A stretch of 64,000 bases of DNA. It comes from Chloroflexota bacterium. GTDB taxonomy: Bacteria; Chloroflexota; Anaerolineae; Anaerolineales; Villigracilaceae. This document shows positions 31,987 through 53,726 of this stretch, in pieces; the stretch's first letter is position 1; each line of letters starts with the position of its first letter. The translations under genes and the position numbers were made by a program. The stretch is from the NCBI GenBank assembly GCA_037440925.1, contig JBBITF010000006.1, positions 1 to 64,000 of the forward strand. Direction: 5' to 3'. The notes under the pieces are model-generated. The model searched no databases. It had not been told where the DNA came from and saw only the letters and a program-made list of their open reading frames with translations.

Positions 31987-31997
31987 AGAGGTGAAGC

Positions 31998-32207: not shown

Positions 32208-32251
32208 CAGACCGAAGCGCTTTGTAAGATATTCTTTTTGAGGAGGTAGAT

Positions 32252-32569: not shown

Positions 32570-32602
32570 TCCGTTTAGCGCGAGGTTACATTCTCCACAC
32601 TG

Positions 32603-32668
32603 GGGATAGGGGGGAGCAGATGTGCAAATCAGCCGTCTTCCTGCCCCCTATCCCTTGTTGTTTCTTTG
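32603..32668 (+). terminator. Possible attenuator or partial intrinsic terminator between dsrC and dsrM
   Basis: An 11-bp stem GGGATAGGGGG/CCCCCTATCCC plus CAG/CTG is followed by TTGTTGTTTCTTT. It sits in the only gap over 100 nt inside the array. Confidence 0.45.
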
Positions 32669-32675
32669 AGGCACT

Positions 32676-33422: not shown

Positions 33423-33433
33423 GAGAATAACCT

Positions 33434-34879: not shown

Positions 34880-34894
34880 CCCTTGGAGACAGCC

Positions 34895-35659: not shown

Positions 35660-35674
35660 GGCAGGAGAATGAAC

Positions 35675-36049: not shown

Positions 36050-36080
36050 TCGTCGTGCGTTGATCGGTAAAGGATAGCCT

Positions 36081-38450: not shown

Positions 38451-38477
38451 TTGGAATTTTATATTTGGAGGTAGAAC

Positions 38478-39164: not shown

Positions 39165-39168
39165 TGAT

Positions 39169-40515: not shown

Positions 40516-40704
40516 ATGAACATTGGCGGTTTGGTTCACGCATATTTCGACAATGCCGGCCCGGGCGGAGTCTTTGTCTTGCTGGTTGTCGGCGTTGCCT
40601 GCACTACCTACTACCTCCTGGCCCGCTGGTTCGTAGCCGGCGGTAGAACAGAGAGCCAGGCAGTTCCTTCTACCGATGAACAACCTGTGAGCATGGACGA
40701 ATGA
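40516..40704 (+). CDS. 62-aa single-TM protein (ActD-like position)
   Basis: AGGAGG RBS, one TM helix (VFVLLVVGVACTTYYLL), and a 4-nt ATGA overlap with the next gene. Confidence 0.55.
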   Translation: MNIGGLVHAYFDNAGPGGVFVLLVVGVACTTYYLLARWFVAGGRTESQAVPSTDEQPVSMDE

Positions 40705-42791
40705 AACGACGAATTCTGCTTCCCTCCCTGGTCTTCCTGGCGGTCCTGACGCTGGCCGTCGGCTCCGTCTCCGCTTCCTCCCTCGACTTCAGCCTGCCTG
40801 CCTCGGCCGAAGGAGAGACTCTCGTCTCCGGCAATTACTGCGCCTCCTGTCATCTGACCGATGACCCGCGCCTGGCGTCTGCCACGGCTTGGAAAGGCGG
40901 CATCCAAAGCAAAGTCAACTCGCCCTGCCCGGCAGCCATCAAAATACACGAAGAACTATATTACACCGAACGGTTGCTGCTCATGATCGAACGCGCCGAA
41001 AACGCAGTTGGCCCCTTGCCCGAAAAGAGCCAGGCTCGTTTGGAGGACTATACCCAGCGTTACAGCCGTATGCTCGATACGCCTGTCGGCAGCCTGGACG
41101 CTTTCGTCAGTGAAGCCCAGTCAACTCGTTATCAGTTGAACAAGGCCTATGCTGCGCTCAATCAAATGGCGCAAGACGCCAAACAGCGCACAATCTTGAC
41201 GTATGCGGCGGCGATTACCTTGATTGTGCTTGGCTCATTGGCCTGGGGCGTGTACAACTCCCGCGCGCTGGCCTCTGGAAAGGTGAGCCGATCTTGGGGG
41301 CTATTCTGGCGTGTGCTGTTTATCGTGGCTGTTGTGGCGTTCTTTACCTTGCCTTTCTTCCGTGTGCCGGCCGAAGAGGTGGTGATGACCACTGCCGAAC
41401 AGCAGGAAGCCCAGGCAACCCTCGATGCCGCTCAACGCGCAGCCGACGCTGCCGACCGTTCGCAGGCGCGCGCCTGGATGTTAGCCCGCGTTGCGGCTGC
41501 CTATGCCGAAATGGACGCCGCCCAAGCCCAGGCTATCCTGGATGAAGCGCTGACCTCGCTCGACGTAGCCCGCAAGAACGAAGAAGCCCTGTGGGGGCAA
41601 AGCCTGGTCGTGCAAGAAGTGACGGTTGGCACCAAAATCGAAATGGAATCGGCCGGCCTCATCACCGCCGACCTGAACGCTGCCCGCGCCCGCGCCTGGG
41701 CCTTGCCGCTGGTTGCCCGGCAGTGGAACGCCCTCGATCCAATCAAAGCCGCCGCCCTCTTACAGGCCGAACAGGACGCCCTGATTGGCCAAGAAGGCCT
41801 CTACCGTGATTTACAATTGCGCGCCCTATCGCTGGCCTGGGTCGAAGTGAATCCTTCCAAGGCCGCCCCTGCTGCCGCCCAAATACAGGACGCTTCCCTG
41901 CGCGCCTGGACCTTCCGTGAACTGGCGGACCTGACCCACAACCCCTCACTCTATGACAAAGCCCTCCAGGCTGCGCGTGAAATCACGGACCCTGTCCAGA
42001 AAGCGCGCGCCCTGCGAGAGATTGCCCACTCTTCTGGCAAGAGCGCCCTTTTCGAGGAAGCCCTGACCGCGCTAGATGGCGTGACCGACCCCGCTTTGGC
42101 CTATGCCCTCAGCGACCTGGCCGCTGCCTGGGGCAACGCTTCTCTGGTCGAAAGAATCGCCTACCCCGATGCCCGCGCCAGCGCCTTGCTGCGCATGGGA
42201 GAATACCCCTCCGCTTGGGAGGCGGCGGCAGGCATCGCTGATCCTTACGAACAGGCGCGCGCCCAAGCCGCCATTGCTTCTGCCTGGGGCAATGCCGATG
42301 CCGCCATGCAGATTGCTGTCCCCTTATACCGCGATTTGGCATTGCGCGATGTCATCCGAAAAACGGGAAATACGTCACTGGCAGAGGCAATTACCTCCAA
42401 GTACTATAAAGTCCAGGCTCTAACTGCTCTAGGCGAGACCGAATCTGCCCTCCAAGTAGCCGCCGACCTGGGCGAAACCTACCCCTTGGTTGATTTGGCT
42501 GTCCATTTGTCCGCCTCCAATCCGCAGGCGGCGTTGGCCTTGGTCGAGCAGATGAAGCGCGAAAGCGACAAAGCCATTGCCTTGCAGGCTATTGCTGTTG
42601 CCTCGCAGGACCCGTCGCTCATCGAACAGGCGCAGGGCATGGCACTGGCCGCCCGCGTGCGCGGCGACTCGCTGGCCCCGGCCCAGGCTTTGCTCGATCT
42701 TGCAAATGCCCTTCTGGAAGTAGATGTCAAATACGCAGAAGCAGCCTTTCGTCAGGCGTATGAAGCGGCGCAGCGCATTGCAACCAAATGA
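40701..42791 (+). CDS. Monohaem cytochrome c domain + two TM helices + ~450-aa Ala-rich helical-repeat (HEAT/TPR-like) domain protein
   Basis: Signal peptide, a single CASCH, two TM helices (ILTYAAAITLIVLGSLAWGVY and LFWRVLFIVAVVAFFTLPFF), then repeated ~30-aa units of the form D-x-x-x-(R/K)A-x-AL-x-x-IA-x-x-W. Confidence 0.75.
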   Translation: MKRRILLPSLVFLAVLTLAVGSVSASSLDFSLPASAEGETLVSGNYCASCHLTDDPRLASATAWKGGIQSKVNSPCPAAIKIHEELYYTERLLLMIERAENAVGPLPEKSQARLEDYTQRYSRMLDTPVGSLDAFVSEAQSTRYQLNKAYAALNQMAQDAKQRTILTYAAAITLIVLGSLAWGVYNSRALASGKVSRSWGLFWRVLFIVAVVAFFTLPFFRVPAEEVVMTTAEQQEAQATLDAAQRAADAADRSQARAWMLARVAAAYAEMDAAQAQAILDEALTSLDVARKNEEALWGQSLVVQEVTVGTKIEMESAGLITADLNAARARAWALPLVARQWNALDPIKAAALLQAEQDALIGQEGLYRDLQLRALSLAWVEVNPSKAAPAAAQIQDASLRAWTFRELADLTHNPSLYDKALQAAREITDPVQKARALREIAHSSGKSALFEEALTALDGVTDPALAYALSDLAAAWGNASLVERIAYPDARASALLRMGEYPSAWEAAAGIADPYEQARAQAAIASAWGNADAAMQIAVPLYRDLALRDVIRKTGNTSLAEAITSKYYKVQALTALGETESALQVAADLGETYPLVDLAVHLSASNPQAALALVEQMKRESDKAIALQAIAVASQDPSLIEQAQGMALAARVRGDSLAPAQALLDLANALLEVDVKYAEAAFRQAYEAAQRIATK

Positions 42792-43463: not shown

Positions 43464-44888
43464 ATGACTGCTCGAACCCGTCATGCGCCTCGTCTGGTCA
43501 TTGCGGCGCCCCAGGGTCGAAGTGGAAAAACCACCCTGACCTTGGGATTGTGCGCCGCATTCAAAGCGCGCGCGCTGACCATCCAGCCCTACAAAAAAGG
43601 ACCCGATTACATTGATCCCTCCTGGCTGAGTGAAGCCGCTGGAACCCTCTGCCGTTCCCTAGACCCTTTCTTTTACGAAAAGCCCGAAGAACTCTTACGG
43701 GCTTTTCTGCGCTCTGCTCCTCAAGATGGGGTGAGCCTGATCGAAGGCAATCACGGCTTGTTTGACTCCTTCGATGAAAGCGGACGAGGTAGCACGGCTG
43801 CGGTTGCGCGCACGTTGCAGGCTCCCCTCCTGTTGGTGATCAATGCCGCCCGCATGGGGCGCAGCGCCGCGGCCATCGTGCATGGCTGTCAAACCTTCGA
43901 GCCAGAAACGAACATCGCCGGCGTGGTTCTGAACAACGTAGCGCAAGGTCGCCACGAGGCCCGTATGCGCCAGGCCATTGAAAGTCGCTGCGGTGTGCCT
44001 GTATTGGGCGCCATTCCACGCGACGAAACCCTGACCATCCCCGACCGTCACCTGGGATTGGTGCCTCGCGCCGAACAAGACGCGCTTCTTCCCGCCATCA
44101 CAGCCTGCCGGCAGACTATCGAGCGCTACCTCGACCTCGATGCTGTCCTGGCTATAGCCCGGGCTGCGCCTGCTTTACCCGCTCCCTCTCCGGCCTCCTC
44201 CGCGGCCCAGCCGGTCTCGCATCGGCCGCTCATCGGCGTCCTGCGCGACCGTGCCTTTACCTTCTACTACCCTGAAAATTTAGAAGCCCTGGAAGAAGCC
44301 GGTGCCGACCTGCTCTTCCTGGACGCTTTGCGTGACGCCGAATTGCCCCCTGTAGACGCCCTCTACATCGGCGGCGGCTTCCCCGAAATATTCATGGACG
44401 AGTTGTCTGCCAACGTTTCTCTGCGCCGCGCCATCCGCGAAGCCATCGAAAACGACTTGCCGGTCTACGCCGAATGCGGCGGCCTGATGTACCTCTCCCA
44501 GCGCATTGTGTGGGGCGAAAAATCGGCCGAGATGGTGGGCGCCTTGCCCTGCGAAATCGAAATGACCTCCAAACCCCAGGGACATGGCTACGTAACTGCC
44601 CAGGTGGAGGCCGAGAATCCTTTTTTCTCGCCGGGCCTGCTCTTGCGTGGACATGAGTTCCACAACTCGCGGCTTGTAATGCTCCCTGGCAACCGCCTTG
44701 CAACGGCTTATCGCCTCTTGCGCGGCAATGGAGTAGGCGATGGCCGCGATGGGCTTCTTTACCGTAACACATTGGCTTCTTACACTCATTTGCATTCTGG
44801 CGGAGCGCCTGACTGGGCCGTTGGCCTGGTTCATCGGGCGCAGGTTTATCGAGAAAACCGCCTACAAGCAGAAATGGATAACAGATGA
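43464..44888 (+). CDS. dsrN: Cobyrinic acid a,c-diamide synthase family protein, DsrN (sirohaem amidase) by context
   Basis: P-loop APQGRSGKTTLTLGL with KKGPDYIDPSW, and a C-terminal glutamine-amidotransferase part (YAECGGLMYL, GHEFHNS). Located in the dsr operon. Confidence 0.85.
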   Translation: MTARTRHAPRLVIAAPQGRSGKTTLTLGLCAAFKARALTIQPYKKGPDYIDPSWLSEAAGTLCRSLDPFFYEKPEELLRAFLRSAPQDGVSLIEGNHGLFDSFDESGRGSTAAVARTLQAPLLLVINAARMGRSAAAIVHGCQTFEPETNIAGVVLNNVAQGRHEARMRQAIESRCGVPVLGAIPRDETLTIPDRHLGLVPRAEQDALLPAITACRQTIERYLDLDAVLAIARAAPALPAPSPASSAAQPVSHRPLIGVLRDRAFTFYYPENLEALEEAGADLLFLDALRDAELPPVDALYIGGGFPEIFMDELSANVSLRRAIREAIENDLPVYAECGGLMYLSQRIVWGEKSAEMVGALPCEIEMTSKPQGHGYVTAQVEAENPFFSPGLLLRGHEFHNSRLVMLPGNRLATAYRLLRGNGVGDGRDGLLYRNTLASYTHLHSGGAPDWAVGLVHRAQVYRENRLQAEMDNR

Positions 44889-46015
44889 GGCTGCCTCTCC
44901 TTTCCAATATTGGTAATTTTTTCCCAAAATTGCGCTCGAAACCGGATGTCCAGGCCTCCAAAAAACGGCCGTTTAACGTCGTGCAAATCGAAATCACCAG
45001 TCGCTGCAGCACCGGCTGTGTCTTCTGCCCGCATGATGCTTTGTCTGACAAATGGATAGACGGGGACCTGTCGCCGCTCATGTATGAAGAATATATCGTC
45101 CCGCATCTGGATTTGTTCGATTTGGTGTACCTGCAAGGCTGGGGCGAACCTATGCTGCACCCCAACCTGTGGGATATGCTGGCCTCGGCTCAAGACAAGG
45201 GTTGCCGCACCGGCTTCACCACCAACGGCGCCTGGCTGCAAAGCGAACAAAATCAGCGTCTGGTAGAGATGGGTGTGGATATGATTTCCGTCTCTTTTGC
45301 CGGGACGGCTGCTCCCATTCACGAATCGCTGCGTACCAATTCTCAGTTTGCCGAACTGTGTAGCAATTTCGAGAGCCTGGCCAACCTCAAGAAACAACGC
45401 GGCGTGACCAAACCCTGGCTCGAATTGCATTTCCTGATGACCCGCGCCAATTTGAAAGAATTCCCTGGCCTGGTCGAACTGGCTGCCTCCCTAGGCGCGG
45501 ATGAAGTAGTCGCCACCAACCTCACCTATTCCCCGAGCCTGGCGCTAGACCGGATGCACATCTTTGGCGAACAGCCTCTGCCTGAAGATGTCGAACTGAT
45601 TCAGCGCGCCCAAGCCAACGCTGAACGGCTGAACATTCCGCTGCGCGTTTACCCGCTCCAAACCGAACCCAATACCCTGGTCTGTGACGCTGACCCGCTC
45701 AATACCGTGTACGTCAACCATCGCGGCGAGGTCTCCCCTTGTGTCTATCTGGGGCTAACAGTGCAGGGAAGGGTTCCGCGCTTCTATCAGGGCGAAGCTC
45801 ACCCATTTGACGCCCTTTCCTTTGGAAATATTCAGACAGGTTTCTTGAAGGCGCTTCATGGAAAAGAGCGCGAGACCTTCCTGTCTGCTTTCAAACAACG
45901 CAATATGACCAGCGGCCCTCTGGCGATGCTTACCTACATGTCCGAACCAGGCCAGGCTGAATTGCCGCCTCCGCCTGTCCCTTGTCAGCATTGCTACAAA
46001 ATGTTGGGCGTGTGA
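44885..46015 (+). CDS. Radical SAM enzyme with C-terminal SPASM/twitch-like Cys region (NirJ/Ahb/MoaA-like style)
   Basis: CSTGCVFC (Cx3Cx2C) follows VVQIEITSRC. The GWGEPML motif is present. C-terminal cysteines are CDADP...SPCVYL...PCQHC. There is a 4-nt ATGA overlap with dsrN. Confidence 0.85.
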   Translation: MRLPLLSNIGNFFPKLRSKPDVQASKKRPFNVVQIEITSRCSTGCVFCPHDALSDKWIDGDLSPLMYEEYIVPHLDLFDLVYLQGWGEPMLHPNLWDMLASAQDKGCRTGFTTNGAWLQSEQNQRLVEMGVDMISVSFAGTAAPIHESLRTNSQFAELCSNFESLANLKKQRGVTKPWLELHFLMTRANLKEFPGLVELAASLGADEVVATNLTYSPSLALDRMHIFGEQPLPEDVELIQRAQANAERLNIPLRVYPLQTEPNTLVCDADPLNTVYVNHRGEVSPCVYLGLTVQGRVPRFYQGEAHPFDALSFGNIQTGFLKALHGKERETFLSAFKQRNMTSGPLAMLTYMSEPGQAELPPPPVPCQHCYKMLGV

Positions 46016-46085
46016 ACGATCATGATCGCTCAACTCCCTACTTTTCTTTTGAGAGGACCTAAAATTTTTGTTGAAGAGGTTTCCA

Positions 46086-48944
46086 ATGCCAAACGATGCA
46101 CAAAATAAGACAGCCAAGAACCAAGAGCAAGCCTGGCACGCGCTGCCTGTCGAGGAAGTGCTTCGCCACCTCGAAGTGCAGGAAAATGGATTGAGCGCCG
46201 AACAGGCTGCCCAACGTTTGAAACAATATGGACCGAACCAATTGCAGGAAGCGCCGCGCCCCACCTTTTGGCACATGCTGTGGGAGCAGTTGAACAACTT
46301 TGTGGTCATCCTGCTCATCGTGGCATCCATTATTTCTGCCCTCTTGGGCGATTACGTGGAAGCCGCTGCCATCATGGCCATCGTCGCGCTGAATGCCGTT
46401 CTCGGCATCATTCAGGAACAGCGCGCCGAAGAAGCCCTGGCGGCATTGAAAAAATTGGCCGCGCCCGATGCCCAGGTGCTGCGCGATGGCCGCCGGCAGA
46501 CCATCCCGGCGCGCGACCTGGTGCCCGGCGACATCGTCTTCCTGGAAGCAGGCAATTTCGTCCCGGCGGATGTGCGCCTGCTCGAGGCGGTCAACCTGCG
46601 CATCGAAGAGGCCTCCCTCACCGGCGAGTCCCTGCCGGTGCAGAAGAGCGCCGTTTCCATCATTGACAAGGATGTGCCGATTGGCGACCGCAAGAACACC
46701 GCCTTCATGGGGACGACCGTTTCCTACGGGCGCGGACGCGGCGTGGTGGTCAGCACCGGGATGCGCACCCAGTTGGGCCTGATCGCCACCATGCTCCAGA
46801 CCGTGGAAACAGAGGAAACCCCGCTCCAGCGTCGCCTCGATCAGTTGGGCAAGACCTTGAGCATCGCCTCGCTCATCCTGGTTGCCATCGTCTTCGTGGT
46901 GGCTTTGCTCGATTACACCAATATCAATTTGCTTTTCAGCGGGCCGCTGGATTACTTCAAATCCTATAGCCGCGAGATTACGGATGTGTTCATCATCGCG
47001 GTCAGTCTGGCGATTGCAGCCGTGCCAGAGGGCCTGCCGGCCGTTGTGACTATCAGCCTGGCGCTGGGTATGCGCGAGATGATCCGCCGTCACGCCCTCA
47101 TCCGCAAACTGGCCTCTGTGGAGACGCTTGGCTCGGCCACCGTCATCTGTTCCGATAAGACCGGCACCCTGACTCAGAACGAGATGACCGTTACGCGCCT
47201 GTGGGCCGACGGCCAGTTCTTGCATGTCACCGGCACGGGCTACGTTCCGCAAGGAGAGTTTCAGGTGGATGGGAAGACAGTGGACATCAAGAACTATCCC
47301 GCCATCCTGACCTCCCTGTGGCTGGGCGTGCTGAACAACGACGCCGACATCGAGATTACCGGCGAGACTGAGGACGAAAAGACCTACCGCATCGTGGGCG
47401 ATCCCACCGAGGGCGCGTTACTTGTGGCGGCGGCCAAAGCAGGCGCCTTCCACGTCGAGGTGAAGCAGGCCTACCCGCGTGAGAACGAAGTGCCGTTCGA
47501 CTCGGAACGCAAGCGTATGATCACCATCCACGATGTAAGCCAACCGCGCCCGGAGGATATTTCCCCCTTTTATGACAACAAGATGAAGGATTGGGAGGTG
47601 ATTGCCGTCAAAGGCGCGCCCGACATCGTGCTGGGATTGTGTTCCCATTACCAGACGATGGATGACAAATCGAAACCGCTGACCGAAGAACAGCGCCAGC
47701 GCATCTTAGCCGCCAACGACGAGATGACGAAAGATGCTCTGCGCGTGCTGGGCGTGGCTTACCGCATCGTAAAAGAAGTGCCACAGACGGCTGACGGCTT
47801 GAAACCCGAAGAACTGGAAAAAGACCTGGTCTTCGTCGGCCTCTTGGGCATGATTGACCCGGCGCGTTTAGAAGTCAAACCTGCGCTCGAACAGGCGCGC
47901 CAGGCCGGCATCCGCACCGTCATGATCACCGGCGACTATCCTAACACCGCGCGCGCCATCGCCGAATCCATCGGCCTGATGAAGCGCCGCACGCGCGTGC
48001 TGACCGGCGCCGAAGTAGACAAAATGTCTGACGATGGGTTGCGCGACGTCATCGAGGAGACGGCCGTCTTTGCGCGCGTCTCGCCGGAACACAAGATGCG
48101 CATCGTGGACGCGCTGCAAGCCAATGGCGAAGTGGTCGCCATGACCGGCGACGGCGTCAACGATGCCCCGGCCATCAAGCGCGCCGACATCGGCGTAGCC
48201 ATGGGCATCACCGGCACCGACGTGGCCAAGGAAACCGCCGACATGGTGTTGACCGACGACAATTACGCCAGCATCGTCTCGGCGGTCGAGCAGGGACGCA
48301 TCATTTACAGCAACATCCGTAAATTTGTATATTATCTGCTTTCCTGCAATGTGGCAGAAATCCTGGTCATCTTCCTGGGTACGCTCATCTCGAAGAGCTC
48401 TCCTCTCACGGCTATCCAATTGCTCTGGCTCAACTTGGTGACCGACGGCGCCCCTGCTTTGGCCCTGGCCACGGAAAAGGGAGATCCAGACATTATGTCT
48501 CGTTTACCCCGTCCAAAGAATGAACCCATTATCAATCGTTTCATGCAATTGGGCATTCTTGTCCAAACGCTTGCCATTACCAGCGTGACGCTGGGGGCCT
48601 ACTTCTTGGGGTTGAAACTTCACCCCGAACAGCCCGAGTTTGCAGAAGCCATGGCGTTCGTTACCTTGTCACTCTCTGAACTGGCGCGCGCTTTTACGGC
48701 TCGCTCGGAATACTACCCCTTGTTCAAAATCGGGGTGTTCACGAACCGCAATATGAACCTGGCGATTCTACTTTCGGCCGCTTTGATCTTTGCGGTCATC
48801 TACATCCCATTCTTCAACCCCATTTTCAATACCGTTCCGCTAGGCTGGCAACAATGGGAAGTGTTGCTGCCTTTGCTCCTGGTGCCATCCCTGGCTGCTG
48901 AGATACTCAAGTATATCCATCAAAAAACTCGGAAACAGGATTGA
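46086..48944 (+). CDS. P-type cation-transporting ATPase (P2, Ca2+/Mg2+-type)
   Basis: Motifs: TGES, CSDKTGTLTQN, MITGD, GDGVNDAPALKRADIGVAMG-type (GDGVNDAPAIKRADIGVAMG). About 10 TM helices. Confidence 0.95.
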   Translation: MPNDAQNKTAKNQEQAWHALPVEEVLRHLEVQENGLSAEQAAQRLKQYGPNQLQEAPRPTFWHMLWEQLNNFVVILLIVASIISALLGDYVEAAAIMAIVALNAVLGIIQEQRAEEALAALKKLAAPDAQVLRDGRRQTIPARDLVPGDIVFLEAGNFVPADVRLLEAVNLRIEEASLTGESLPVQKSAVSIIDKDVPIGDRKNTAFMGTTVSYGRGRGVVVSTGMRTQLGLIATMLQTVETEETPLQRRLDQLGKTLSIASLILVAIVFVVALLDYTNINLLFSGPLDYFKSYSREITDVFIIAVSLAIAAVPEGLPAVVTISLALGMREMIRRHALIRKLASVETLGSATVICSDKTGTLTQNEMTVTRLWADGQFLHVTGTGYVPQGEFQVDGKTVDIKNYPAILTSLWLGVLNNDADIEITGETEDEKTYRIVGDPTEGALLVAAAKAGAFHVEVKQAYPRENEVPFDSERKRMITIHDVSQPRPEDISPFYDNKMKDWEVIAVKGAPDIVLGLCSHYQTMDDKSKPLTEEQRQRILAANDEMTKDALRVLGVAYRIVKEVPQTADGLKPEELEKDLVFVGLLGMIDPARLEVKPALEQARQAGIRTVMITGDYPNTARAIAESIGLMKRRTRVLTGAEVDKMSDDGLRDVIEETAVFARVSPEHKMRIVDALQANGEVVAMTGDGVNDAPAIKRADIGVAMGITGTDVAKETADMVLTDDNYASIVSAVEQGRIIYSNIRKFVYYLLSCNVAEILVIFLGTLISKSSPLTAIQLLWLNLVTDGAPALALATEKGDPDIMSRLPRPKNEPIINRFMQLGILVQTLAITSVTLGAYFLGLKLHPEQPEFAEAMAFVTLSLSELARAFTARSEYYPLFKIGVFTNRNMNLAILLSAALIFAVIYIPFFNPIFNTVPLGWQQWEVLLPLLLVPSLAAEILKYIHQKTRKQD

Positions 48945-48951
48945 CTTAACG

Positions 48952-48995
48952 AACGTCCCGAAGGTTCCAAAACCTTCGGGACGTTTTATTTTGTT
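48952..48995 (+). terminator. Rho-independent terminator after the ATPase gene (shared spacer with the convergent operon)
   Basis: A 15-bp perfect stem AACGTCCCGAAGGTT-ccaa-AACCTTCGGGACGTT is followed by TTATTTTGTT. Confidence 0.8.
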
Positions 48996-49014: not shown

Positions 49015-50820
49015 CTACTCGCCCGTCAAACCGGCCAGCGTCCCATTCAGGTCTTCCTGGTAGGTGGTGTGACAGGTGCTGCAAAGCGCCAGTTGGGGCT
49101 TGTTTTGTTCGACGGCTTGCTGTTGGTGGCAGGTCAGGCAGCGGCCGTGCATGGCGTCTTTGTAACCGGGCGCCATGGCTTCAAATACAGTTTGGCCTTC
49201 GGCAGGCGTCATGGTCTCATGGCAATCCTGGCAGATCGCTGACGTTAACCGAATGTGTTCCTGTGCATGGCATTCCTGGCAACTTGCGTTCCCGCCCAGT
49301 TCCTGCTGGTGCAGGCTGTGATCGAAGATCGAAGCCGGGCGATAATAATCGGTGTGACAGGCCGAACATGCCGTCGCTTCATCGTTTGGGCGGTCCAGGT
49401 GATGGCAAACCTGGCAGTTGCTCTCGCCGGTGGCCTTATTCATCAAACGTTCCTGGTGCTCCAGATGGGGAAAATTGACTACATAGCCGCTGCGGTTGCC
49501 GTCTATTTGCAGCGGTTCCCAGCCTCTAGCCTCCATGACCGGCGTGGCAGGCGGCTGCGCTTTGACAATCAACACCGGCACCGCCAGCGCCATGACGAAG
49601 ACGGCCAGACGGCTGCGATGCGCGACGATGGCCCTCAGCCACGAGCCTTGACCGGCCAACCAGGTCGCCCTGGCGGGCGCCGCCGCTTCTTCCTCCGCTT
49701 CGGCCTGCTTGCCGAACAATTGCAGATTCTCGGCGAAGAACAGGTACAGCAAGAACGCCGCCGACGGGATGGCGAAGGCGATGGCCGTTTCGCCCAGCGA
49801 AGGGGTATAGGCTGTACCCGCCGCCCGGTACATGGTGAACATGCTCAGCGACATGCGCTGGCTCATGATGCCCAGAATGCCCAGCACGGCGCCGGTCAGC
49901 AGGCCCTCGCGCCTCTCTCGTGTCTTTTTGATGCTGAACAGGACAATGGGAAGCACCCCGCACAACAGGATTTCGGCCAGGAATAAAATGCTTTGCCAGG
50001 AACCATCCAGCGCGCCGGGCAGCACCCCGCGCAGAACCTGGTCGCCCAGGCGCAGCAGCAAGTACAGTCCCAGCGGCAGGGGCGTCCACTTTCCCAAAGT
50101 GGTCAGGATGTCGAAGTGCATCCCGCGTTTGAACCAGCGCTCGACAAAGAAGCCTTCTACAATTAACGCCATCATGCCGGCTGCAATGGCGCTGGTGAAG
50201 AACAGGTAAGGCAGCCAGGGACTATACCACAGCGGGTGGACGCGATGCGGCATGATGAGGAACAGCGATCCCAGCGAGGACTGGTGCAAAGTAGATAGAA
50301 CGATGCCGGCAATCACCAGCGGCAGGGTGAACTTGTGAAGCCAGTGCAGCAGGGTCTTGAAGAGCGGGTGGCGGAACCAGGGATGTTCCAGGATGACCGG
50401 AGAAAACTCCAGCACCAGCACCGAGAAATACAGCATCACACACCAGGCAATCTCGAACATGACCGAGTGATGCTGCCAACTGATGATGGGCATGTAAATG
50501 TGCCAGGGCAGGCCCAGGTCGAAAATCAGGGAGACGATGAATGAGCCGTAGCCCAGCAGAGCCACCAAAATCGCCCGCCGCAAGATGGGGCGGAAGAATT
50601 CCAGGTGGAAAATGTACACCAGTGCCGCCAGGGTGAAGCCGCCGCCGGCGATGGCGACGAACACCAGTTTGAAAGCGATCCACAGCCCCCAGGGGGCAGA
50701 GTCATTGAGTCCGGTAGCGGCCCCAAGTCCGGCAGCGAAGCGAATGATAGAGGCCACCAGGCCCGCCAGGGCGATGGCCCACAATCCATCTTTGATCCAA
50801 GTGCGCGTAGTCGTGTTCAC
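49015..50820 (-). CDS. NrfD/HybB-like membrane subunit fused to a C-terminal hexahaem cytochrome c3-like domain
   Basis: N-terminal ~400 aa polytopic NrfD/HybB-like region (PWGLWIAFKLVFVAIAGGGF), an extra TM helix, then six CxxCH motifs: CQVCH, CSACH, CQECH, CQDCH, CLTCH, CSTCH. Confidence 0.85.
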   Translation of the reverse strand: MNTTTRTWIKDGLWAIALAGLVASIIRFAAGLGAATGLNDSAPWGLWIAFKLVFVAIAGGGFTLAALVYIFHLEFFRPILRRAILVALLGYGSFIVSLIFDLGLPWHIYMPIISWQHHSVMFEIAWCVMLYFSVLVLEFSPVILEHPWFRHPLFKTLLHWLHKFTLPLVIAGIVLSTLHQSSLGSLFLIMPHRVHPLWYSPWLPYLFFTSAIAAGMMALIVEGFFVERWFKRGMHFDILTTLGKWTPLPLGLYLLLRLGDQVLRGVLPGALDGSWQSILFLAEILLCGVLPIVLFSIKKTRERREGLLTGAVLGILGIMSQRMSLSMFTMYRAAGTAYTPSLGETAIAFAIPSAAFLLYLFFAENLQLFGKQAEAEEEAAAPARATWLAGQGSWLRAIVAHRSRLAVFVMALAVPVLIVKAQPPATPVMEARGWEPLQIDGNRSGYVVNFPHLEHQERLMNKATGESNCQVCHHLDRPNDEATACSACHTDYYRPASIFDHSLHQQELGGNASCQECHAQEHIRLTSAICQDCHETMTPAEGQTVFEAMAPGYKDAMHGRCLTCHQQQAVEQNKPQLALCSTCHTTYQEDLNGTLAGLTGE

Positions 50821-50821
50821 G

Positions 50822-51613
50822 TTATTGCTCCTCGGTGGGTTGACTCTGGCGCGCTTTTTGCGCCGCCTGTGCCTGCATACGCCGTTCGATAATCCAGAAC
50901 AGTCCGGTCATCAAACCCGCGGTGCCAATGGTAATGGCGGGTACCTTGCTTAGCCACTCCCAGGTCAGTTCTGGCATGGGCTTCTGGATAGGAGCGCCGT
51001 GATAGCCCAGGAAATCTAACGGAACGTGGGAAATGTACATTACGGCTGTGCCGCCGACTTCCTGCGCGCCATAGACGATGGGCAGATATTTGTGCGGGGC
51101 TTCCTGGATGCGCTGGTTGGCGATTTCGAGCAGTTCGCTCCTTTCGCCAAAGGTCAGCACCTTTTCAGGGCAGGTTTCTACACAGGCGGGCAGTTGTCCC
51201 TGTTGGATGCGGCCATAGCATAACGTACATTTCTGCACCAACGGCGCGGGGGAGTCCCATTCGTAGCGCGGAATGCCAAAGGGACAGGCCATCATGCAAT
51301 AGCGGCAGCCCATACACTTTTGGCTATCGTAGATCACTGCCCCTTCGGGCGTGCGGTACATGGCGCCGACCGGGCAGGCCGAGACGCAGGCCGGTTCCAG
51401 ACAGTGGCGACAGAATTTTCGCACGAAGCCGCCTTCGGGGCTTTCGACAATGGACGACCAGCGGCGCGCCGACAAGCCATCGGGAGATTGCTGCGGCAGG
51501 TATTCGAGCGCGCCCAGGTGGTTGACTTCGGCGCAGGCCTCCACGCATTGATTACAACCCGTACAGCGGGTGACATCCACTAAAATACCAACTTGTTTTA
51601 TCGTGCCGCTCAT
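50822..51613 (-). CDS. 4x[4Fe-4S] protein with C-terminal TM anchor (HmcB/DsrO/HybA-like)
   Basis: Motifs: CTGCNQCVEAC, CRHCLEPACVSACP, CMGCRYCMMACP, CTLC...CVETCP. C-terminal helix ITIGTAGLMTGLFWII. No N-terminal Tat or Sec signal is visible. Confidence 0.9.
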   Translation of the reverse strand: MSGTIKQVGILVDVTRCTGCNQCVEACAEVNHLGALEYLPQQSPDGLSARRWSSIVESPEGGFVRKFCRHCLEPACVSACPVGAMYRTPEGAVIYDSQKCMGCRYCMMACPFGIPRYEWDSPAPLVQKCTLCYGRIQQGQLPACVETCPEKVLTFGERSELLEIANQRIQEAPHKYLPIVYGAQEVGGTAVMYISHVPLDFLGYHGAPIQKPMPELTWEWLSKVPAITIGTAGLMTGLFWIIERRMQAQAAQKARQSQPTEEQ

Positions 51614-52314
51614 ATTTTCCTCCCTTCGGGGCCATGAAGCGCTTGCACGGCTTTGCTGCCGGCTTGTGGGACGAAGTGCCAGGCAATTTCTGTGCTGAGG
51701 CGGATGAGGGGGAAGAGGACACAGTGGGCGATTTTGGTGAATGGCGTGACGAGCAGAAGAGCCATTCCATTCAGCGTGTGGAACAGCATTAGGCCGTTGT
51801 AAGGGATGGGGTTCCAGGGCTGCCCGGCAATGTAGCCGGAGAGGAAGATGTTGAAAATGAGTAACAACAGCACATAGTCGGCTGTCTTGCTCAAACGCCG
51901 CGAGGCCGGAACATACAGCCTGAACAGCAGCAACAGGCTGACCCCGACGATGCTGATGAGGGTCAGCACGTCTAGCACCGGCTTCGAGATGGCAAACCAG
52001 GCAATCCCGATGTTGTCCTTCAGAATGTCCAGGTGATTACGCAGGAAGAGGGACACAACCAGGATGCCGACGTGTAAGCCAAAAGAGGCAAAACTATAAG
52101 CGGCGCGGTTACGGTGCAGGCGGTTGAAGGGGAACAGCCATGAGAATGTCTGCACGACGATCTGCCGCATAGGAAGGCGGCGATCGCCGGCGCGGCGGAT
52201 GGCTGTAACCATATCCCAAACGGTCAAGGCAACCAGCCGCAGCAATGCCAGCGCGACCAGCGTCGCTACAAAGAAAAAGGCAGGGCCTTTGGCAAGCATC
52301 AACCAGGTTGGCAT
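51610..52314 (-). CDS. NarI/HdrE/DsrM/HmcE-like membrane cytochrome b subunit
   Basis: Five TM helices with conserved His residues (RLHRN, GLHVG, LFHTLNG, KIAHC). There is a 4-nt overlap with the downstream FeS gene. Confidence 0.8.
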   Translation of the reverse strand: MPTWLMLAKGPAFFFVATLVALALLRLVALTVWDMVTAIRRAGDRRLPMRQIVVQTFSWLFPFNRLHRNRAAYSFASFGLHVGILVVSLFLRNHLDILKDNIGIAWFAISKPVLDVLTLISIVGVSLLLLFRLYVPASRRLSKTADYVLLLLIFNIFLSGYIAGQPWNPIPYNGLMLFHTLNGMALLLVTPFTKIAHCVLFPLIRLSTEIAWHFVPQAGSKAVQALHGPEGRKI

Positions 52315-52349: not shown

Positions 52350-53726
52350 TCAGGAAAGGTCAATGGCGCGCAACACCAGGTCATGCACGCCGACGATTTG
52401 AACGGGCAGTTTGTGATAATCTACCAATTCTCGCAGTTGTTTCTTGCAGTTGGCGCAGGGCGAGGCCACGATCTGCGCCCCGCTGGCGCGGATTTGTTCG
52501 GCTTTGGTTTTTCCTGAGACTTGCATACGGAAGTCGAAAGTTTCATCCAGTGAGACCAGGCCGCCGCCTCCGCCGCAGCAATAGTTTTCGCGGCCACGAG
52601 GCGTCATTTCGACAAAGTCGGAAACGAAACTGCGCAACAATTGGCGCGGCTGTTCGATGATCCAGCCCGAGCGGGCAATGTTGCAGGGGTCATGATAAGT
52701 GACGCGCTCGGTAATCACATCCTTTTTCAGCCGCAATTTTCCTTCTTGCGCCGCCTGCGCAGTCAATTCCAGAATGCTGACTACCGGCAACGCGCGTTCC
52801 CCGGCAAAGGCAGGGACGAATTGACGCGCCGAACGGGCGGCGTGACCGCACTCCCCGATCAAAATTTTTTGCGCTTTCAAGCGATGCGCTTCTTCGACCA
52901 GTTTTTCGATGATGCGTTCCAGCACCCAATCGTTGTAGAACAAGCCGTAGTTGATGCCATCGAAGTATTTCGAGCCAATCGTCCAGGAGACGCCGGCTGC
53001 ATAGAGTGCAGCGGCATTGCCCATGAGCGTGTCCGCTTCCATGAGGTAGTCGCTGACGGCCGGGAAGAAGATGTACTCGGCGCCTTCCTGGTCAACCGGG
53101 AATTTGATTTCTTTGCCGGTGGTGTCTTTCAATTCCTCTTCCAGGAACTCGATGTTGTCCATCAAGGCTGGTAGCGGAATGGCCGAGGTGTTGGCGGTTG
53201 CGCCTTCCAATTGTTCGCGTACTGAAACAACCAGGCCTTTGGGCGCGATGCCCGCTTCACTGAGAACATAGCGCCCCAGATGGGCAATCAGGCCGTGATC
53301 AATGCCCAGCGGGCAATCCAGCGTGCAGCGCCGGCAGGCGTTACAGCGATAGAAGAATTCGGCCATTTCGTCTATTTTTGCGTTGCTCAGACTATCTTTG
53401 GGAGTAGCCCAACCCAGCCAATTTCTATCGTCCGAAAAGTATTGCTTATATACGTCCAGCAGCAAATTGGTGCGATAGCAGGGTACATCATAAGGGTCAT
53501 TTGTAGTCTGGTAGACCTGGCAACTAGACGCACAGCGCCCGCATTTGGCGCTGGTTTTGGCATACAGTTCGATTAGAAAACGGTAGTTGCTGTTACGCAA
53601 AATGGCTTCAAAAGCCGCCAGAAAGCGTTCTGCCCGCTTGTCTAGTTCAGGCAGCGTGCTGGATTCGAGATGGTAAAAATAAGGTTGGGATAAAGCGTCG
53701 GTCTTCTTTTCGGCGGGAGTCGTCAT
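52350..53726 (-). CDS. HdrD/DsrK/HmcF-like Fe-S CCG-domain protein
   Basis: Motifs: CGRCASSC, CNACRRCTLDCPLGID, CGHAARS, HDPCNIAR, YCCGGGGG, CANCKKQL. GAGGTG RBS. Confidence 0.9.
   Translation of the reverse strand: MTTPAEKKTDALSQPYFYHLESSTLPELDKRAERFLAAFEAILRNSNYRFLIELYAKTSAKCGRCASSCQVYQTTNDPYDVPCYRTNLLLDVYKQYFSDDRNWLGWATPKDSLSNAKIDEMAEFFYRCNACRRCTLDCPLGIDHGLIAHLGRYVLSEAGIAPKGLVVSVREQLEGATANTSAIPLPALMDNIEFLEEELKDTTGKEIKFPVDQEGAEYIFFPAVSDYLMEADTLMGNAAALYAAGVSWTIGSKYFDGINYGLFYNDWVLERIIEKLVEEAHRLKAQKILIGECGHAARSARQFVPAFAGERALPVVSILELTAQAAQEGKLRLKKDVITERVTYHDPCNIARSGWIIEQPRQLLRSFVSDFVEMTPRGRENYCCGGGGGLVSLDETFDFRMQVSGKTKAEQIRASGAQIVASPCANCKKQLRELVDYHKLPVQIVGVHDLVLRAIDLS

What the first reader, a model, noticed from the sequence alone, without database searches (positions are those of the whole stretch)
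49015..50820. Gene fusion of an NrfD/HybB-type quinone subunit with a hexahaem cytochrome c3-like domain
Seen: a single 601-aa ORF. Residues ~1-400 form a polytopic NrfD/HybB-like domain. An additional TM helix (LAVFVMALAVPVLIV) follows, then a ~170-aa domain with six CxxCH motifs and extra His residues (FPHLEHQ, FDHSLHQ) typical of bis-His class III cytochromes. Established: in Dsr, Hmc, Nrf and Qrc systems the cytochrome c and NrfD subunits are separate polypeptides. Inference: the fusion fixes a 1:1 stoichiometry and could report which cytochrome docks on NrfD proteins in the unfused systems.
Basis: partly seen in the sequence, partly recalled or inferred. Interest (0 to 1): 0.5.

Follow-up and report, generated by a model that had tools for sequence, protein, structure and literature searches.

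The report
NrfD fused to six-haem cytochrome
This is a real, widely conserved gene joining a quinone-handling membrane protein to a six-haem cytochrome; it is the last subunit of a four-protein Hmc/Dsr-like electron-transfer complex near sulfite-respiration genes, and I found no paper describing this variant.

Summary
ORF 49015-50820 (minus strand, 601 aa) has a 10-helix NrfD/HmcC/HybB-type core, an 11th hydrophobic helix and a domain of about 180 aa with six CxxCH motifs.

It is not an assembly artefact. More than 120 protein clusters keep the architecture, as do 74 of 80 species-representative genomes from over 10 phyla. All six CxxCH motifs and six extra histidines are invariant, which fits six bis-His haems.

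The gene ends a conserved operon: DsrK/HmcF-like CCG protein, HmcE-like dihaem cytochrome b, HmcB-like four-cluster Fe-S protein, then the fusion. All cofactor ligands are conserved. This is a compact Hmc-type complex in which the 16-haem HmcA is replaced by a hexahaem module fused to HmcC.

In this window it lies about 17 kb from bona fide dsrABDC-dsrMK. In six other lineages dsrAB lies directly downstream.

Most likely role: it links extracytoplasmic haems and the menaquinone pool to cytoplasmic DsrC-trisulfide or disulfide reduction.

Open points:
- TM11 might be cleaved as an internal signal peptide.
- The signal-less Fe-S subunit has no evident export route.
- Neither redox partners nor the direction of electron flow are known.

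No paper I could read describes the fusion. I rate it a new variant of a known kind, of moderate interest.

The parts
49015..50820 (-). Fused gene: NrfD/HmcC-type core + TM11 + hexahaem cytochrome c domain (601 aa, GTG start; stop codon 49015-49017)
   Evidence: ORF. Pfam and NCBIfam matches. Conserved full-length homologues.
49723..50820 (-). NrfD/HmcC/HybB-like 10-TMH quinone-interacting core (aa 1-366)
   Evidence: PF03916 at 74 bits; HmcC 243 bits and HybB 232 bits. AF2 pLDDT is 80-97 over most of the core, and the best Foldseek hits are ActC/ActF of alternative complex III. 32% identity to E. coli HybB. HybB Y99, S129, E133 and H184 correspond to invariant Y91, S119, E123 and H179; HybB D58 corresponds to invariant K51.
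49609..49722 (-). Cytoplasmic linker (aa 367-404), acidic/Ala-rich then basic (RAIVAHRSR)
   Evidence: pLDDT below 50 for aa 372-392. Length and sequence vary among homologues. Five K/R residues, consistent with a cytoplasmic location (sequence).
49564..49608 (-). TM11 hydrophobic core LAVFVMALAVPVLIV (aa 405-419), acting as a membrane anchor or an internal signal peptide
   Evidence: Kyte-Doolittle score 3.03 over 15 residues. An equivalent helix is present in 59 of 59 fused representatives. The signal-peptide-like n/h/c layout is conserved, but no cleavage motif is.
49018..49563 (-). Extracytoplasmic hexahaem class III cytochrome c domain (aa 420-601). CxxCH motifs at aa 469, 485, 514, 530, 561, 580. 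Candidate distal His at 452, 455, 474, 501, 504, 558
   Evidence: PF02085, PF14537 and PF14522. A profile search hits 16-haem Hmc, 9-haem Nhc and cytochrome c3 structures. All motifs and the six extra His are invariant in A1 (83 sequences) and A2 (22 divergent sequences). Chance control.
50822..51613 (-). HmcB/HybA-like Fe-S subunit (263 aa) with four [4Fe-4S] motifs, a C-terminal TM tail anchor and no N-terminal signal peptide
   Evidence: NCBIfam HmcB 243 bits and HybA 180 bits. 16 invariant Cys in 58 sequences. No signal peptide in any orthologue, and a conserved W-[IV]-[IVT]-x-R-R after the tail helix.
51610..52314 (-). HmcE/TmcC-like membrane cytochrome b (234 aa)
   Evidence: NCBIfam HmcE 104 bits and TmcC 91 bits. 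Four invariant His (H81, H94, H179, H197), enough for two b haems, in 51 sequences.
52350..53726 (-). DsrK/TmcB/HmcF-like cytoplasmic CCG iron-sulfur subunit (458 aa)
   Evidence: NCBIfam DsrK 291 bits (cut-off 400), TmcB 214 bits, HmcF 193 bits. Invariant features in 52 sequences: two [4Fe-4S] motifs, C348...C383C384...C424xxC427, and G291-E-C-G-H295. The GECGH motif is described for DsrK/HmcF/TmcB in PMC10861901.
53739..54404 (-). HTH_3 + cupin transcription regulator at the head of the cluster
   Evidence: Pfam HTH_3 and Cupin_2. The same regulator precedes the operon in Chloroflexota loci L001-L003, L007, L010-L012 and L036. A promoter-like site lies at 54489-54461 on the minus strand.
48951..48986 (.). 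16-bp perfect hairpin between the convergent P-type ATPase gene and the fused gene; a likely bidirectional terminator marking the operon end
   Evidence: Terminator-like site.

Best explanation
The ORF encodes the membrane subunit of a compact, four-gene Hmc-type transmembrane redox complex.

Shown by computation:
- The polypeptide has a 10-helix NrfD/HmcC core with its N terminus in the cytoplasm.
- An 11th helix carries the chain back out.
- A six-haem, all bis-His class III cytochrome domain follows on the outer face.
- The gene is co-transcribed with three partners. One is a tail-anchored Fe-S protein with four [4Fe-4S] motifs (HmcB-like). One is a dihaem cytochrome b (HmcE-like). One is a cytoplasmic DsrK/HmcF-like subunit with a CCG catalytic site.
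- All cofactor ligands are conserved across phyla.

Inferred mechanism:
- The tethered hexahaem module is the entry or exit point for electrons outside the cell.
- It feeds the Fe-S chain and the menaquinone site of the NrfD core, as in QrcCD and HybAB, probably taking up protons from the cytoplasm.
- It also feeds the b haems, which carry electrons across the membrane to the DsrK-like subunit.
- In this organism that subunit most likely reduces DsrC-trisulfide, or another disulfide, during sulfite respiration.

The fusion replaces the separate 16-haem HmcA or triheme DsrJ and guarantees co-synthesis and co-localisation of the cytochrome with the quinone module.
For: Architecture:
- ORF, domain matches and motifs.
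- Six CxxCH and six extra His invariant.
- TM11 present in 59 of 59 fusions.
- The core resembles the 10-TMH subunits ActC/ActF, which have their termini on the N side (PMC8076601).
- Counting K/R by hand on the sequence gives 22 in predicted inside loops and 5 in outside loops.

Conservation:
- More than 120 clusters at 55-100% identity.
- 68 of the top 150 50%-identity representatives carry haem motifs after the core.
- 74 of 80 GTDB loci from more than 10 phyla have core and hexahaem domain in one ORF.

Operon (counted only where the contig leaves room):
- HmcB-like present in 68 of 74 loci, HmcE-like in 65 of 71, DsrK-like in 53 of 65.
- Cofactor ligands and the GECGH motif are invariant. 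Their meaning comes from PMC10861901.

Hmc-like identity:
- HmcB, HmcC and HmcE are the best NCBIfam matches.
- The cytochrome domain hits HmcA/Nhc/c3.

Link to Dsr:
- Bona fide dsrA, dsrB, dsrK, DsrC and DsrD lie in the same window.
- dsrAB lies 2-5 kb downstream of the operon in L035, L039, L069, L074, L076 and L085.
- The Cons_hypoth698-dsrAB arrangement is shared between L039 and the window.

Quinone and proton function:
- HybB Y99, S129, E133 and H184 equivalents are invariant.
- HmcC, HybB and QrcD are proposed to be electrogenic quinone reductases: PMC6303296 and PMC13059093.
Against: - No experiment exists. The direction of electron flow, the redox partners and the DsrK-like substrate are all inferred.
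- All four subunits score below the NCBIfam equivalog cut-offs, so function cannot simply be transferred from Hmc or Dsr.
- The family also occurs where no dsr genes are nearby. Planctomycetota variants replace the DsrK-like gene with a 23-haem cytochrome, so the role is not uniform.
- The Fe-S partner has no signal peptide and no obvious Tat carrier, so its placement outside the cell rests on homology and charge bias only.
- In the Chloroflexota clade, the Asp equivalent to HybB D58, which is needed for menaquinone reduction, is an invariant Lys.
- The AF2 model of the haem domain is low-confidence. The fold search was not significant. Packing of the haem domain on the NrfD face could not be assessed.
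- TM11 might be cleaved.
Confidence: 0.7

Rival explanations
1. Polyprotein precursor. The gene is fused, but TM11 works as an internal Sec signal peptide and is cut by signal peptidase. The mature products would be an 11-TMH NrfD protein and a separate, soluble hexahaem cytochrome of about 19 kDa. The precedent, from my own knowledge, is the Bradyrhizobium FbcH cytochrome b-c1 precursor.
For: TM11 has a signal-peptide-like layout that is conserved across the family: a basic n-region (ARRSG / HRSR), a short hydrophobic core of 13-15 residues with a Pro near its end, then a polar Pro/Ser/Ala-rich stretch. In the window the sequence is VKA|QP. A permissive (-3,-1) rule finds candidate sites in 76 of 83 sequences. 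The standalone homologue in L018 has an ordinary N-terminal signal peptide ending YANA|Q in the same register before the domain.
Against: No cleavage motif is conserved in position or sequence. The rule used is loose enough to match by chance. AF2 models residues 387-418 as one long helix. Uncleaved fusions of membrane subunits with cytochrome c domains are common, for example caa3 subunit II and Bacillus QcrC (own knowledge). No signal-peptide predictor was available.
Confidence: 0.2
2. It is the organism's DsrMKJOP equivalent: a divergent Dsr complex with gene order K-M-O-P and DsrJ fused to DsrP, dedicated to DsrC-trisulfide reduction, rather than an Hmc-type complex.
For: The best match for the cytoplasmic subunit is DsrK (291 bits). 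The window's own dsrMK has no dsrJOP. dsrAB is directly downstream of the operon in six lineages. The subunit inventory of cytochrome b, CCG protein, Fe-S protein, NrfD and cytochrome c equals that of DsrMKJOP (PMC10861901).
Against: DsrP scores 17.6 bits against 243 for HmcC. DsrO scores 122 against 243 for HmcB. DsrM scores 19 against 104 for HmcE. The cytochrome is a six-haem, all bis-His c3/Hmc-type domain, not the triheme DsrJ with His/Cys and His/Met haems. Most of the 80 loci show no dsrAB within 6 kb.
Confidence: 0.2
3. It is a quinol:cytochrome oxidoreductase for outward (extracellular or periplasmic) electron transfer, like CbcL, ImcH or ACIII. The NrfD core oxidises menaquinol, and the hexahaem domain hands electrons to other multihaem cytochromes or external acceptors.
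For: Planctomycetota/Phycisphaerae loci L015, L020, L023 and L029 lack the DsrK-like gene and have a 23-haem cytochrome of 842-888 aa directly after the fusion. L004 has 16- and 7-haem cytochromes there. Fusion variants with 10-14 haems exist. Anaerolineae are rich in large multihaem cytochromes (bioRxiv 2021.08.23.457424).
Against: In the window and in 53 of 65 loci with room, the DsrK-like and cytochrome b genes are present with intact catalytic motifs, which points to a cytoplasmic reaction. No large multihaem cytochrome gene adjoins the operon in the window. HmcC, HybB and QrcD are thought to favour quinone reduction (PMC6303296).
Confidence: 0.15
4. It is an assembly or frameshift artefact, or a pseudogene, that merges an NrfD gene with a downstream cytochrome gene.
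For: None specific to the window. Some public assemblies do show frameshift-split copies (L004; 307- and 315-aa halves; L079).
Against: The same single ORF with the same linker helix recurs in more than 120 independent clusters and in 74 of 80 species genomes from many phyla. There is strong purifying conservation on both sides of the junction. The observed splits break the gene at other places and co-occur with other frameshifts on the same contig.
Confidence: 0.01

Closest known systems
HmcABCDEF complex of Desulfovibrio (high-molecular-weight cytochrome complex)
   Same: [quoted passage not shown] HmcB, HmcC and HmcE are the best NCBIfam matches. The cytochrome domain matches HmcA and solved Hmc structures.
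   Different: The cytochrome has 6 haems rather than 16 and is fused to HmcC through an extra TM helix. No HmcD was found. The gene order is F-E-B-C(A'). HmcB lacks its signal peptide. All scores fall below the equivalog cut-offs. The family is spread over more than 10 mostly non-Desulfobacterota phyla.
DsrMKJOP complex (terminal DsrC-trisulfide reductase)
   Same: It has the same five functional modules. The DsrK-like subunit carries the CCG and GECGH motifs. It is genomically linked to dsrAB in this window and in six other lineages.
   Different: DsrJ is a separate, TM-anchored triheme protein with His/Cys and His/Met ligation. Here there is a fused hexahaem, all bis-His domain. The DsrM, DsrO and DsrP profiles score far below the Hmc profiles.
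QrcABCD and hydrogenase-2 HybOCAB (QrcCD / HybAB quinone-reducing modules)
   Same: The NrfD core is 32% identical to E. coli HybB and keeps the equivalents of Y99, S129, E133 and H184. QrcA is a separate hexahaem cytochrome c that feeds the Fe-S/NrfD module.
   Different: There is no hydrogenase and no QrcB-like subunit in any of the 85 loci examined. Cytochrome b and CCG subunits are added. The cytochrome is fused. HybB D58 is Lys in the Chloroflexota clade.
Alternative complex III (ActA pentahaem + ActC/ActF)
   Same: It gives the best structural matches for the membrane core (6lod_C, 8k9e_C, 6btm_C, 6f0k_C; E about 1e-7). From my own knowledge, ACIII also places a TM-anchored multihaem cytochrome next to a 10-TMH NrfD subunit.
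   Different: In ACIII the cytochrome anchor is a separate polypeptide. ACIII also has ActB with a molybdopterin-like domain, plus ActD, ActE and ActF. It has no cytochrome b and no CCG subunit.
Geobacter CbcL, and Bacillus QcrC / caa3 subunit II / Bradyrhizobium FbcH (membrane subunit fused to cytochrome c)
   Same: These are precedents for covalently joining a quinone- or membrane-interacting subunit to c-type haem domains. CbcL is listed as an inner-membrane quinol oxidoreductase multihaem cytochrome in PMC11492766. The rest is from my own knowledge.
   Different: The membrane part of CbcL is a dihaem cytochrome b, not an NrfD protein. The others belong to bc complexes or oxidases. FbcH is cleaved after translation.
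TmcABCD complex
   Same: The only unfused homologue of the hexahaem domain (L018, L086) is encoded together with DsrK/TmcB-like and HmcE/TmcC-like genes and no NrfD or Fe-S gene, which is a Tmc-like layout.
   Different: TmcA is a tetrahaem type II cytochrome c3. The window's complex additionally carries the Fe-S/NrfD module.

Membership tests
NrfD/PsrC family (PF03916) | Sequence match above the Pfam gathering score | tested here: met
   74.4 bits against a cut-off of 25.8, aa 37-325.
NrfD/PsrC family (PF03916) | 8-10 TMH integral membrane protein with no redox cofactor (PMC8076601) | tested here: not met
   The core has the 10-TMH ActC-like fold. The polypeptide, however, has an 11th helix and six invariant haem c binding motifs. 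The core domain itself still shows no cofactor motif.
NrfD/PsrC family (PF03916) | Paired with an NrfC/PsrB-type Fe-S subunit encoded next to it | tested here: met
   An HmcB-like gene with 16 invariant Cys lies directly upstream. It is present in 68 of 74 loci with room.
Class III (c3-type) multihaem cytochrome c (PF02085) | Match above the Pfam gathering score, several CxxCH motifs and bis-His ligation | tested here: met
   50.4 bits against a cut-off of 22.9. Six CxxCH and six further invariant His, with the F-x-H-x-x-H signature occurring twice. A profile search hits c3, Nhc and Hmc structures. Actual ligation is not testable in silico.
Class III (c3-type) multihaem cytochrome c (PF02085) | c3-like three-dimensional fold | tested here: inconclusive
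   The domain model has pLDDT 64. The Foldseek top hits are GSU1996, c3 and HmcA, but with E above 0.1 and TM-score below 0.25.
Hmc complex (NCBIfam equivalogs HmcA/B/C/E/F) | Each subunit reaches its equivalog cut-off | tested here: not met
   HmcC 243 against 550, HmcB 243 against 420, HmcE 104 against 275, HmcF 193 against 750, HmcA 23 against 400. These are the best-matching families for B, C and E, but the proteins are not members.
Hmc complex (NCBIfam equivalogs HmcA/B/C/E/F) | Separate 16-haem HmcA, and HmcB with an N-terminal signal peptide | tested here: not met
   The cytochrome is a six-haem domain fused to the HmcC-like subunit. No signal peptide was seen on any HmcB-like orthologue examined.
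Hmc complex (NCBIfam equivalogs HmcA/B/C/E/F) | Small hydrophobic subunit HmcD | not tested
   No ORF lies between the four genes, because they overlap or abut. Small ORFs elsewhere were not searched.
DsrMKJOP | Subunits reach the DsrK/M/O/P equivalog cut-offs | tested here: not met
   DsrK 291 against 400, DsrO 122 against 200, DsrM 19 against 300, DsrP 17.6 against 350. A different gene in the window (33434-34879) does pass the DsrK cut-off with 526 bits.
DsrMKJOP | [quoted passage not shown] | tested here: not met
   The domain has six haem motifs and exactly six extra invariant His. All 12 Cys lie in CxxCH motifs, so none is free to act as an axial ligand.
DsrMKJOP | Catalytic CCG motif plus the T/GECGH cysteine in the K subunit | tested here: met
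   C348...C383C384...C424xxC427 and G291-E-C-G-H295 are invariant in 52 sequences. The motif definition comes from PMC10861901.
DsrMKJOP | Genomic association with dsrAB and dsrC | tested here: inconclusive
   It lies in the same island in the window, about 17 kb away, and directly adjacent in 6 of about 80 loci. It is absent within 6 kb in the rest. Whole genomes were not scanned.
Hydrogenase-2 membrane module (HybAB) | Encoded with the HybO/HybC [NiFe] hydrogenase subunits | tested here: not met
   No HybC or HybO homologue was found in any of the 85 loci or in the Pfam-scanned ORFs of the window.
Alternative complex III | ActB with a molybdopterin-like domain, plus ActD/E/F and a separate ActA | tested here: not met
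   Only four genes are present, none with a molybdopterin domain. The similarity is limited to the fold of the NrfD core.

The most novel reading that the evidence does not exclude
The window carries one member of a widespread, so far unnamed respiratory complex family: a compact Hmc made of a DsrK-like protein, a cytochrome b, a signal-less tail-anchored Fe-S protein and an NrfD::hexahaem fusion. It is present in more than 10 bacterial phyla. On this reading it is the missing membrane link between extracytoplasmic electron carriers, menaquinone and cytoplasmic DsrC or thiol-disulfide chemistry in the newly recognised non-Desulfobacterota sulfite and sulfate reducers. Sister variants have been rewired to giant multihaem cytochromes. 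Its Fe-S subunit would reach the outer face by a route that needs neither its own Tat signal nor an operon-encoded one.
Probability: 0.3. Interest if true: 0.7.

Novelty: new variant of a known kind. Interest (0 to 1): 0.5.

Why it matters
NrfD/PsrC proteins are described in the reviews as cofactor-less quinone subunits that always work with separate partner proteins. Here a large, phylogenetically broad family has the electron-entry cytochrome covalently attached.

Three consequences follow:
1. It provides a natural four-subunit minimal version of the Hmc/Dsr-type complexes. The role of their periplasmic and NrfD modules is still called an enigma (PMC10861901). A smaller complex with fixed stoichiometry is an attractive target for cryo-EM and proteoliposome work.
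2. It suggests how many recently discovered dsrAB-carrying lineages (Chloroflexota, Acidobacteriota, Kryptoniota, Bacteroidota relatives) connect sulfite reduction to the membrane.
3. Current annotation ("NrfD/PsrC family molybdoenzyme membrane anchor", "HybB-like") hides both the cytochrome domain and the absence of any molybdoenzyme or hydrogenase. Metabolic reconstructions from metagenome-assembled genomes will therefore misread these loci.

Tried and rejected
1. Fusion as an anchoring solution for a monoderm (Chloroflexota) envelope. Rejected: the same fusion is common in diderm phyla such as Planctomycetota, Gemmatimonadota, Acidobacteriota and Ignavibacteria.

2. P0148 as a standalone orthologue of the haem domain. 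Rejected: its contig (L004) has frameshift splits in the Fe-S gene, the NrfD gene and the TM11 region, and the product has no signal peptide. Most other short hits were gene fragments on 1-4 kb contigs.

3. AlphaFold packing of the haem domain on the NrfD face. The full-length model has pLDDT 40-67 in the haem domain. The domain-only model has pLDDT 64. The fold search was not significant. No conclusion could be drawn.

4. Genome scan with the divergent haem-domain alignment A2. A1 was used instead.

5. Loss of the Tat signal on the Fe-S partner as a consequence of the fusion. Not supported: an unfused relative (L089) also has a signal-less partner, while L090 has a Tat-signal molybdoenzyme that could carry its partner.

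6. Conserved signal-peptidase site after TM11. Inconclusive.

7. Literature. Nine full-text searches were run and 15 papers opened, including the NrfD review, the Qrc, DsrMKJOP and Tat tail-anchor papers, multihaem cytochrome surveys and dsrAB diversity reviews. None mentions an NrfD-cytochrome fusion. The Duarte 2021 BBA review of the NrfD family was not available, and the paper cap stopped a look at the Acidobacteria dsr paper.

8. The exact window protein (P0001) was not on record for the contig look-up.


Full report
**Observation**

The ORF at 49015..50820 (minus strand) is real. It is 601 aa long with a GTG start. A GAGGAG ribosome-binding site lies upstream, and the stop codon of the preceding gene ends one base before the start.

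Pfam places an NrfD domain at aa 37-325 (74 bits) and class III cytochrome domains at aa 466-585. NCBIfam matches HmcC (243 bits) and HybB (232 bits) over aa 16-373. The hydrophobic stretch LAVFVMALAVPVLIV is aa 405-419. Six CxxCH motifs start at aa 469, 485, 514, 530, 561 and 580.

This is far from chance. The whole window has only 12 CxxCH motifs in 226 long reading segments, and six of them are here. 20,000 shuffles of the domain never gave more than two. All 12 cysteines of the domain lie in the motifs.

**Not an artefact**

A word-indexed search returned 5,793 relatives. The best 120 clusters are 55-100% identical, from NCBI, JGI, ENA and Logan assemblies. Nearly all are about 600 aa long and carry both Pfam domains. 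116 of the 120 have exactly six CxxCH motifs.

In an 83-sequence alignment every CxxCH is invariant. So are six further histidines: H452, H455, H474, H501, H504 and H558. The same 24 positions stay invariant in 22 divergent domains of 35-53% identity. The layout is F-x-H-x-x-H ... CxxCHH ... CxxCH ... F-x-H-x-x-H ... CxxCH ... CxxCH ... AMH ... CxxCH ... CxxCH. Six extra His for six haems fits all-bis-His ligation of the c3 type.

An exhaustive search of 50%-identity representatives found 2,456 relatives. Of the top 150, 68 carry haem motifs after the NrfD core. Most have six, but some have 2-5, 7 or 10-14.

Of the 80 best loci, 74 have the core and the hexahaem domain in one ORF. By record title these come from:
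- Chloroflexota/Anaerolineales
- Planctomycetota
- Gemmatimonadota
- Acidobacteriota
- Ignavibacteria, Melioribacteraceae, Kapabacteria and Kryptoniota
- Zixibacteria
- Thermodesulfobacteriota
- Hyphomicrobiales
- Oligoflexia

An Elusimicrobiota member appeared. Apparent split copies are frameshifted assemblies.

**Topology**

The AlphaFold model is confident for the membrane core (pLDDT 80-97). Its best solved neighbours are ActC and ActF of alternative complex III (E about 1e-7). These are 10-TMH NrfD proteins with both termini on the cytoplasmic side (PMC8076601).

A C-terminal cytochrome c must be outside the cell to receive haem, so one extra helix is required. All 59 full-length fused representatives have one between TM10 and the first haem motif, whatever their haem number.

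Counting K/R by hand on the window sequence gives 22 in the predicted inside loops and 5 in the outside loops. The linker before TM11 (aa 367-404) is variable and modelled with low confidence.

**The operon**

The fusion is the last of four tightly packed genes. A perfect 16-bp hairpin follows it. The genes are:
- 52350-53726: a DsrK/TmcB/HmcF-like protein.
- 51610-52314: an HmcE/TmcC-like cytochrome b.
- 50822-51613: an HmcB/HybA-like Fe-S protein.
- 49015-50820: the fusion.

An HTH-cupin regulator precedes them.

Counting only where the contig leaves room, the HmcB-like gene is present in 68 of 74 GTDB loci, the HmcE-like gene in 65 of 71, and the DsrK-like gene in 53 of 65.

Cofactor ligands are invariant across phyla:
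- Four His in the cytochrome b, enough for two b haems.
- Sixteen Cys in the Fe-S protein, enough for four [4Fe-4S] clusters.
- In the DsrK-like protein, two cluster motifs, the C...CC...CxxC CCG signature and a GECGH motif.

PMC10861901 identifies these last features as the catalytic hallmark shared by DsrK, HmcF and TmcB.

The complex is therefore Hmc-like in composition. However, the 16-haem HmcA is replaced by a six-haem module fused to HmcC. There is no HmcD gene between the subunits. All scores fall below the equivalog cut-offs.

**Context and likely role**

The window holds a reductive dsr island:
- dsrA and dsrB, both above the curated cut-offs.
- A DsrD-like ORF.
- DsrC with both redox cysteines.
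- DsrM-like and bona fide DsrK genes.
- A CobB-type amidase, which is a DsrN candidate.

The island lies about 17 kb from the fusion operon.

In six other lineages (L035, L039, L069, L074, L076, L085) dsrAB lies 2-5 kb downstream of the operon. In L039 a Cons_hypoth698 gene separates them, as it precedes dsrAB in the window. No hydrogenase or molybdoenzyme gene is linked in any locus.

The NrfD core is 32% identical to E. coli HybB. It keeps the equivalents of Y99, S129, E133 and H184, residues implicated in the quinone site and proton path (PMC13059093). HmcC, HybB and QrcD are considered probable electrogenic quinone reductases (PMC6303296).

I therefore infer the following. The outer hexahaem module exchanges electrons with external carriers. 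It passes them to the Fe-S chain and menaquinone site, and through the b haems to the cytoplasmic CCG subunit. In this organism that subunit most likely reduces DsrC-trisulfide. This mechanism is inferred, not shown.

**Variation that limits generalisation**

- Planctomycetota/Phycisphaerae loci lack the DsrK-like gene and place a 23-haem cytochrome after the fusion. L004 has 16- and 7-haem cytochromes in that position. This suggests an outward electron conduit.
- Four loci have only the Fe-S gene plus an NrfD::triheme fusion.
- The only unfused homologue of the hexahaem domain (L018, L086) has its own signal peptide. It is encoded with DsrK-like and cytochrome b genes but without NrfD or Fe-S genes. 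The module can evidently serve the cytochrome b path on its own.

**Unresolved points**

1. Every HmcB-like partner lacks a signal peptide but keeps a tail helix followed by a conserved W-[IV]-[IVT]-x-R-R. Homology and charge bias put the Fe-S domain outside the cell, yet no Tat carrier is encoded nearby. Signal-less relatives are thought to hitchhike (PMC10924467).
2. HybB D58, which is needed for menaquinone reduction, aligns with an invariant Lys in the Chloroflexota clade. Fifty-nine six-haem fusions from other phyla keep Asp.
3. TM11 looks like a signal peptide: a basic n-region, a 13-15-residue core, then a Pro/Ser/Ala-rich tail. No cleavage site is conserved, so a cleaved polyprotein remains possible.
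4. Packing of the haem domain could not be assessed, because the models and the fold search were unreliable.

**Novelty**

Databases name these proteins "NrfD/PsrC family molybdoenzyme membrane anchor" or "HybB-like". In nine literature searches and fifteen papers I found no description of an NrfD-cytochrome fusion. The family review describes NrfD-like subunits as having no redox cofactors.

The key BBA review of the family could not be read, so prior mention cannot be ruled out.

I classify the finding as a new variant of a known kind, namely the Hmc/Dsr-type complexes. It is of moderate interest because it is widespread, mis-annotated, linked to newly found sulfite reducers, and offers a simpler model of complexes whose mechanism is still debated.

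Noticed in passing
window 28497-34879 (+): A complete reductive-type dsr island. It holds a Cons_hypoth698 membrane protein, dsrA (579 bits) and dsrB (526 bits), a DsrD-like 69-aa ORF (31998-32207), DsrC with both redox Cys (32252-32569), a DsrM-like gene and bona fide DsrK (526 bits). No dsrJOP is present.
   Followed up: partly
window 34883-40497 (+): Directly after dsrK come a TM-anchored dihaem cytochrome c (104 aa), a Rieske 2Fe-2S protein with a twin-arginine signal, and a signal-peptide monohaem cytochrome c. They are followed by a Tat molybdopterin oxidoreductase (best matches PhsA and QrcB, both below cut-off) with its own Fe-S subunit and an unfused 442-aa NrfD subunit. This is an unusual cytochrome/Rieske/molybdoenzyme cluster.
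   Followed up: partly
window 40701-42791 (+): A 696-aa ORF with no Pfam or NCBIfam match and one CxxCH motif, lying between the molybdoenzyme cluster and the DsrN-like gene.
   Followed up: no
window 43464-48944 (+): A CobB/CfbB-type a,c-diamide synthase (a candidate sirohaem amidase, DsrN), a radical SAM/SPASM maturase-like gene and a P-type cation ATPase. The same three genes flank the fusion operon in L003 (73% identical orthologue), together with GluTR, ferredoxin, DsrE-like and CCG genes.
   Followed up: partly
window 50822-51613 (-); also the orthologues listed (about 70, loci L001-L085): The HmcB-like Fe-S subunit with four [4Fe-4S] motifs never has an N-terminal signal peptide, unlike E. 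coli HybA and the HmcB profile. It keeps a C-terminal TM helix followed by a conserved W-[IV]-[IVT]-x-R-R. How it is exported is unexplained. An unfused relative (L089) shares the trait.
   Followed up: partly
window about 50668-50670 (-), codon for K51: The position equivalent to E. coli HybB D58, which is required for menaquinone reduction, is an invariant Lys in all Chloroflexota orthologues (A1; L006-L012, L036). It is Asp in 59 six-haem fusions from other phyla.
   Followed up: partly
L018 10772-13616 (-) and L086 411-983: In a Thermodesulfobacteriota MAG, about 3 kb from its own fusion operon, there is a second, Tmc-like cluster: a DsrK-like gene, an HmcE-like gene and a standalone 197-aa hexahaem homologue with a Sec signal peptide. 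It has no NrfD or Fe-S gene. Only three such standalone homologues were found.
   Followed up: partly
L015 7860-10526, L020, L023, L029 (and L026, partial): Planctomycetota/Phycisphaerae versions of the operon lack the DsrK-like gene. Instead they have a 23-haem cytochrome of 842-888 aa (Paired_CXXCH_1, c7, c3_2 domains) immediately after the fusion gene.
   Followed up: partly
P0180, P0182, P0245, P0246, P0254, P0275, P0285, P0287; L080-L084: Other NrfD-cytochrome fusions exist with 10-14 haems (729-1096 aa) and with 2-5 haems. The 3-haem forms (Cytophagia, Blastocatellia, Acidimicrobiia and Myxococcales MAGs) are accompanied only by the Fe-S gene.
   Followed up: no
L003 11823-12374, L002 11909-12460, L006, L007, L011, L012, L036; L018 10190-10765: A soluble protein of about 183 aa, with weak similarity to the universal stress protein family, follows the fusion gene in seven Chloroflexota loci. 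In L018 it follows the standalone hexahaem gene. It is absent from this window.
   Followed up: partly
L004 5800-8700; cluster members P0305, P0307, P0309, P0311; L079: Several public assemblies split the Fe-S gene, the NrfD gene or the fusion gene through frameshifts, for example into 307- and 315-aa halves. These can masquerade as unfused genes in database searches.
   Followed up: yes
window 48951-48986: A perfect 16-bp GC-rich hairpin with a T-run lies between the convergent ATPase and fusion genes. It is a probable bidirectional terminator.
   Followed up: no
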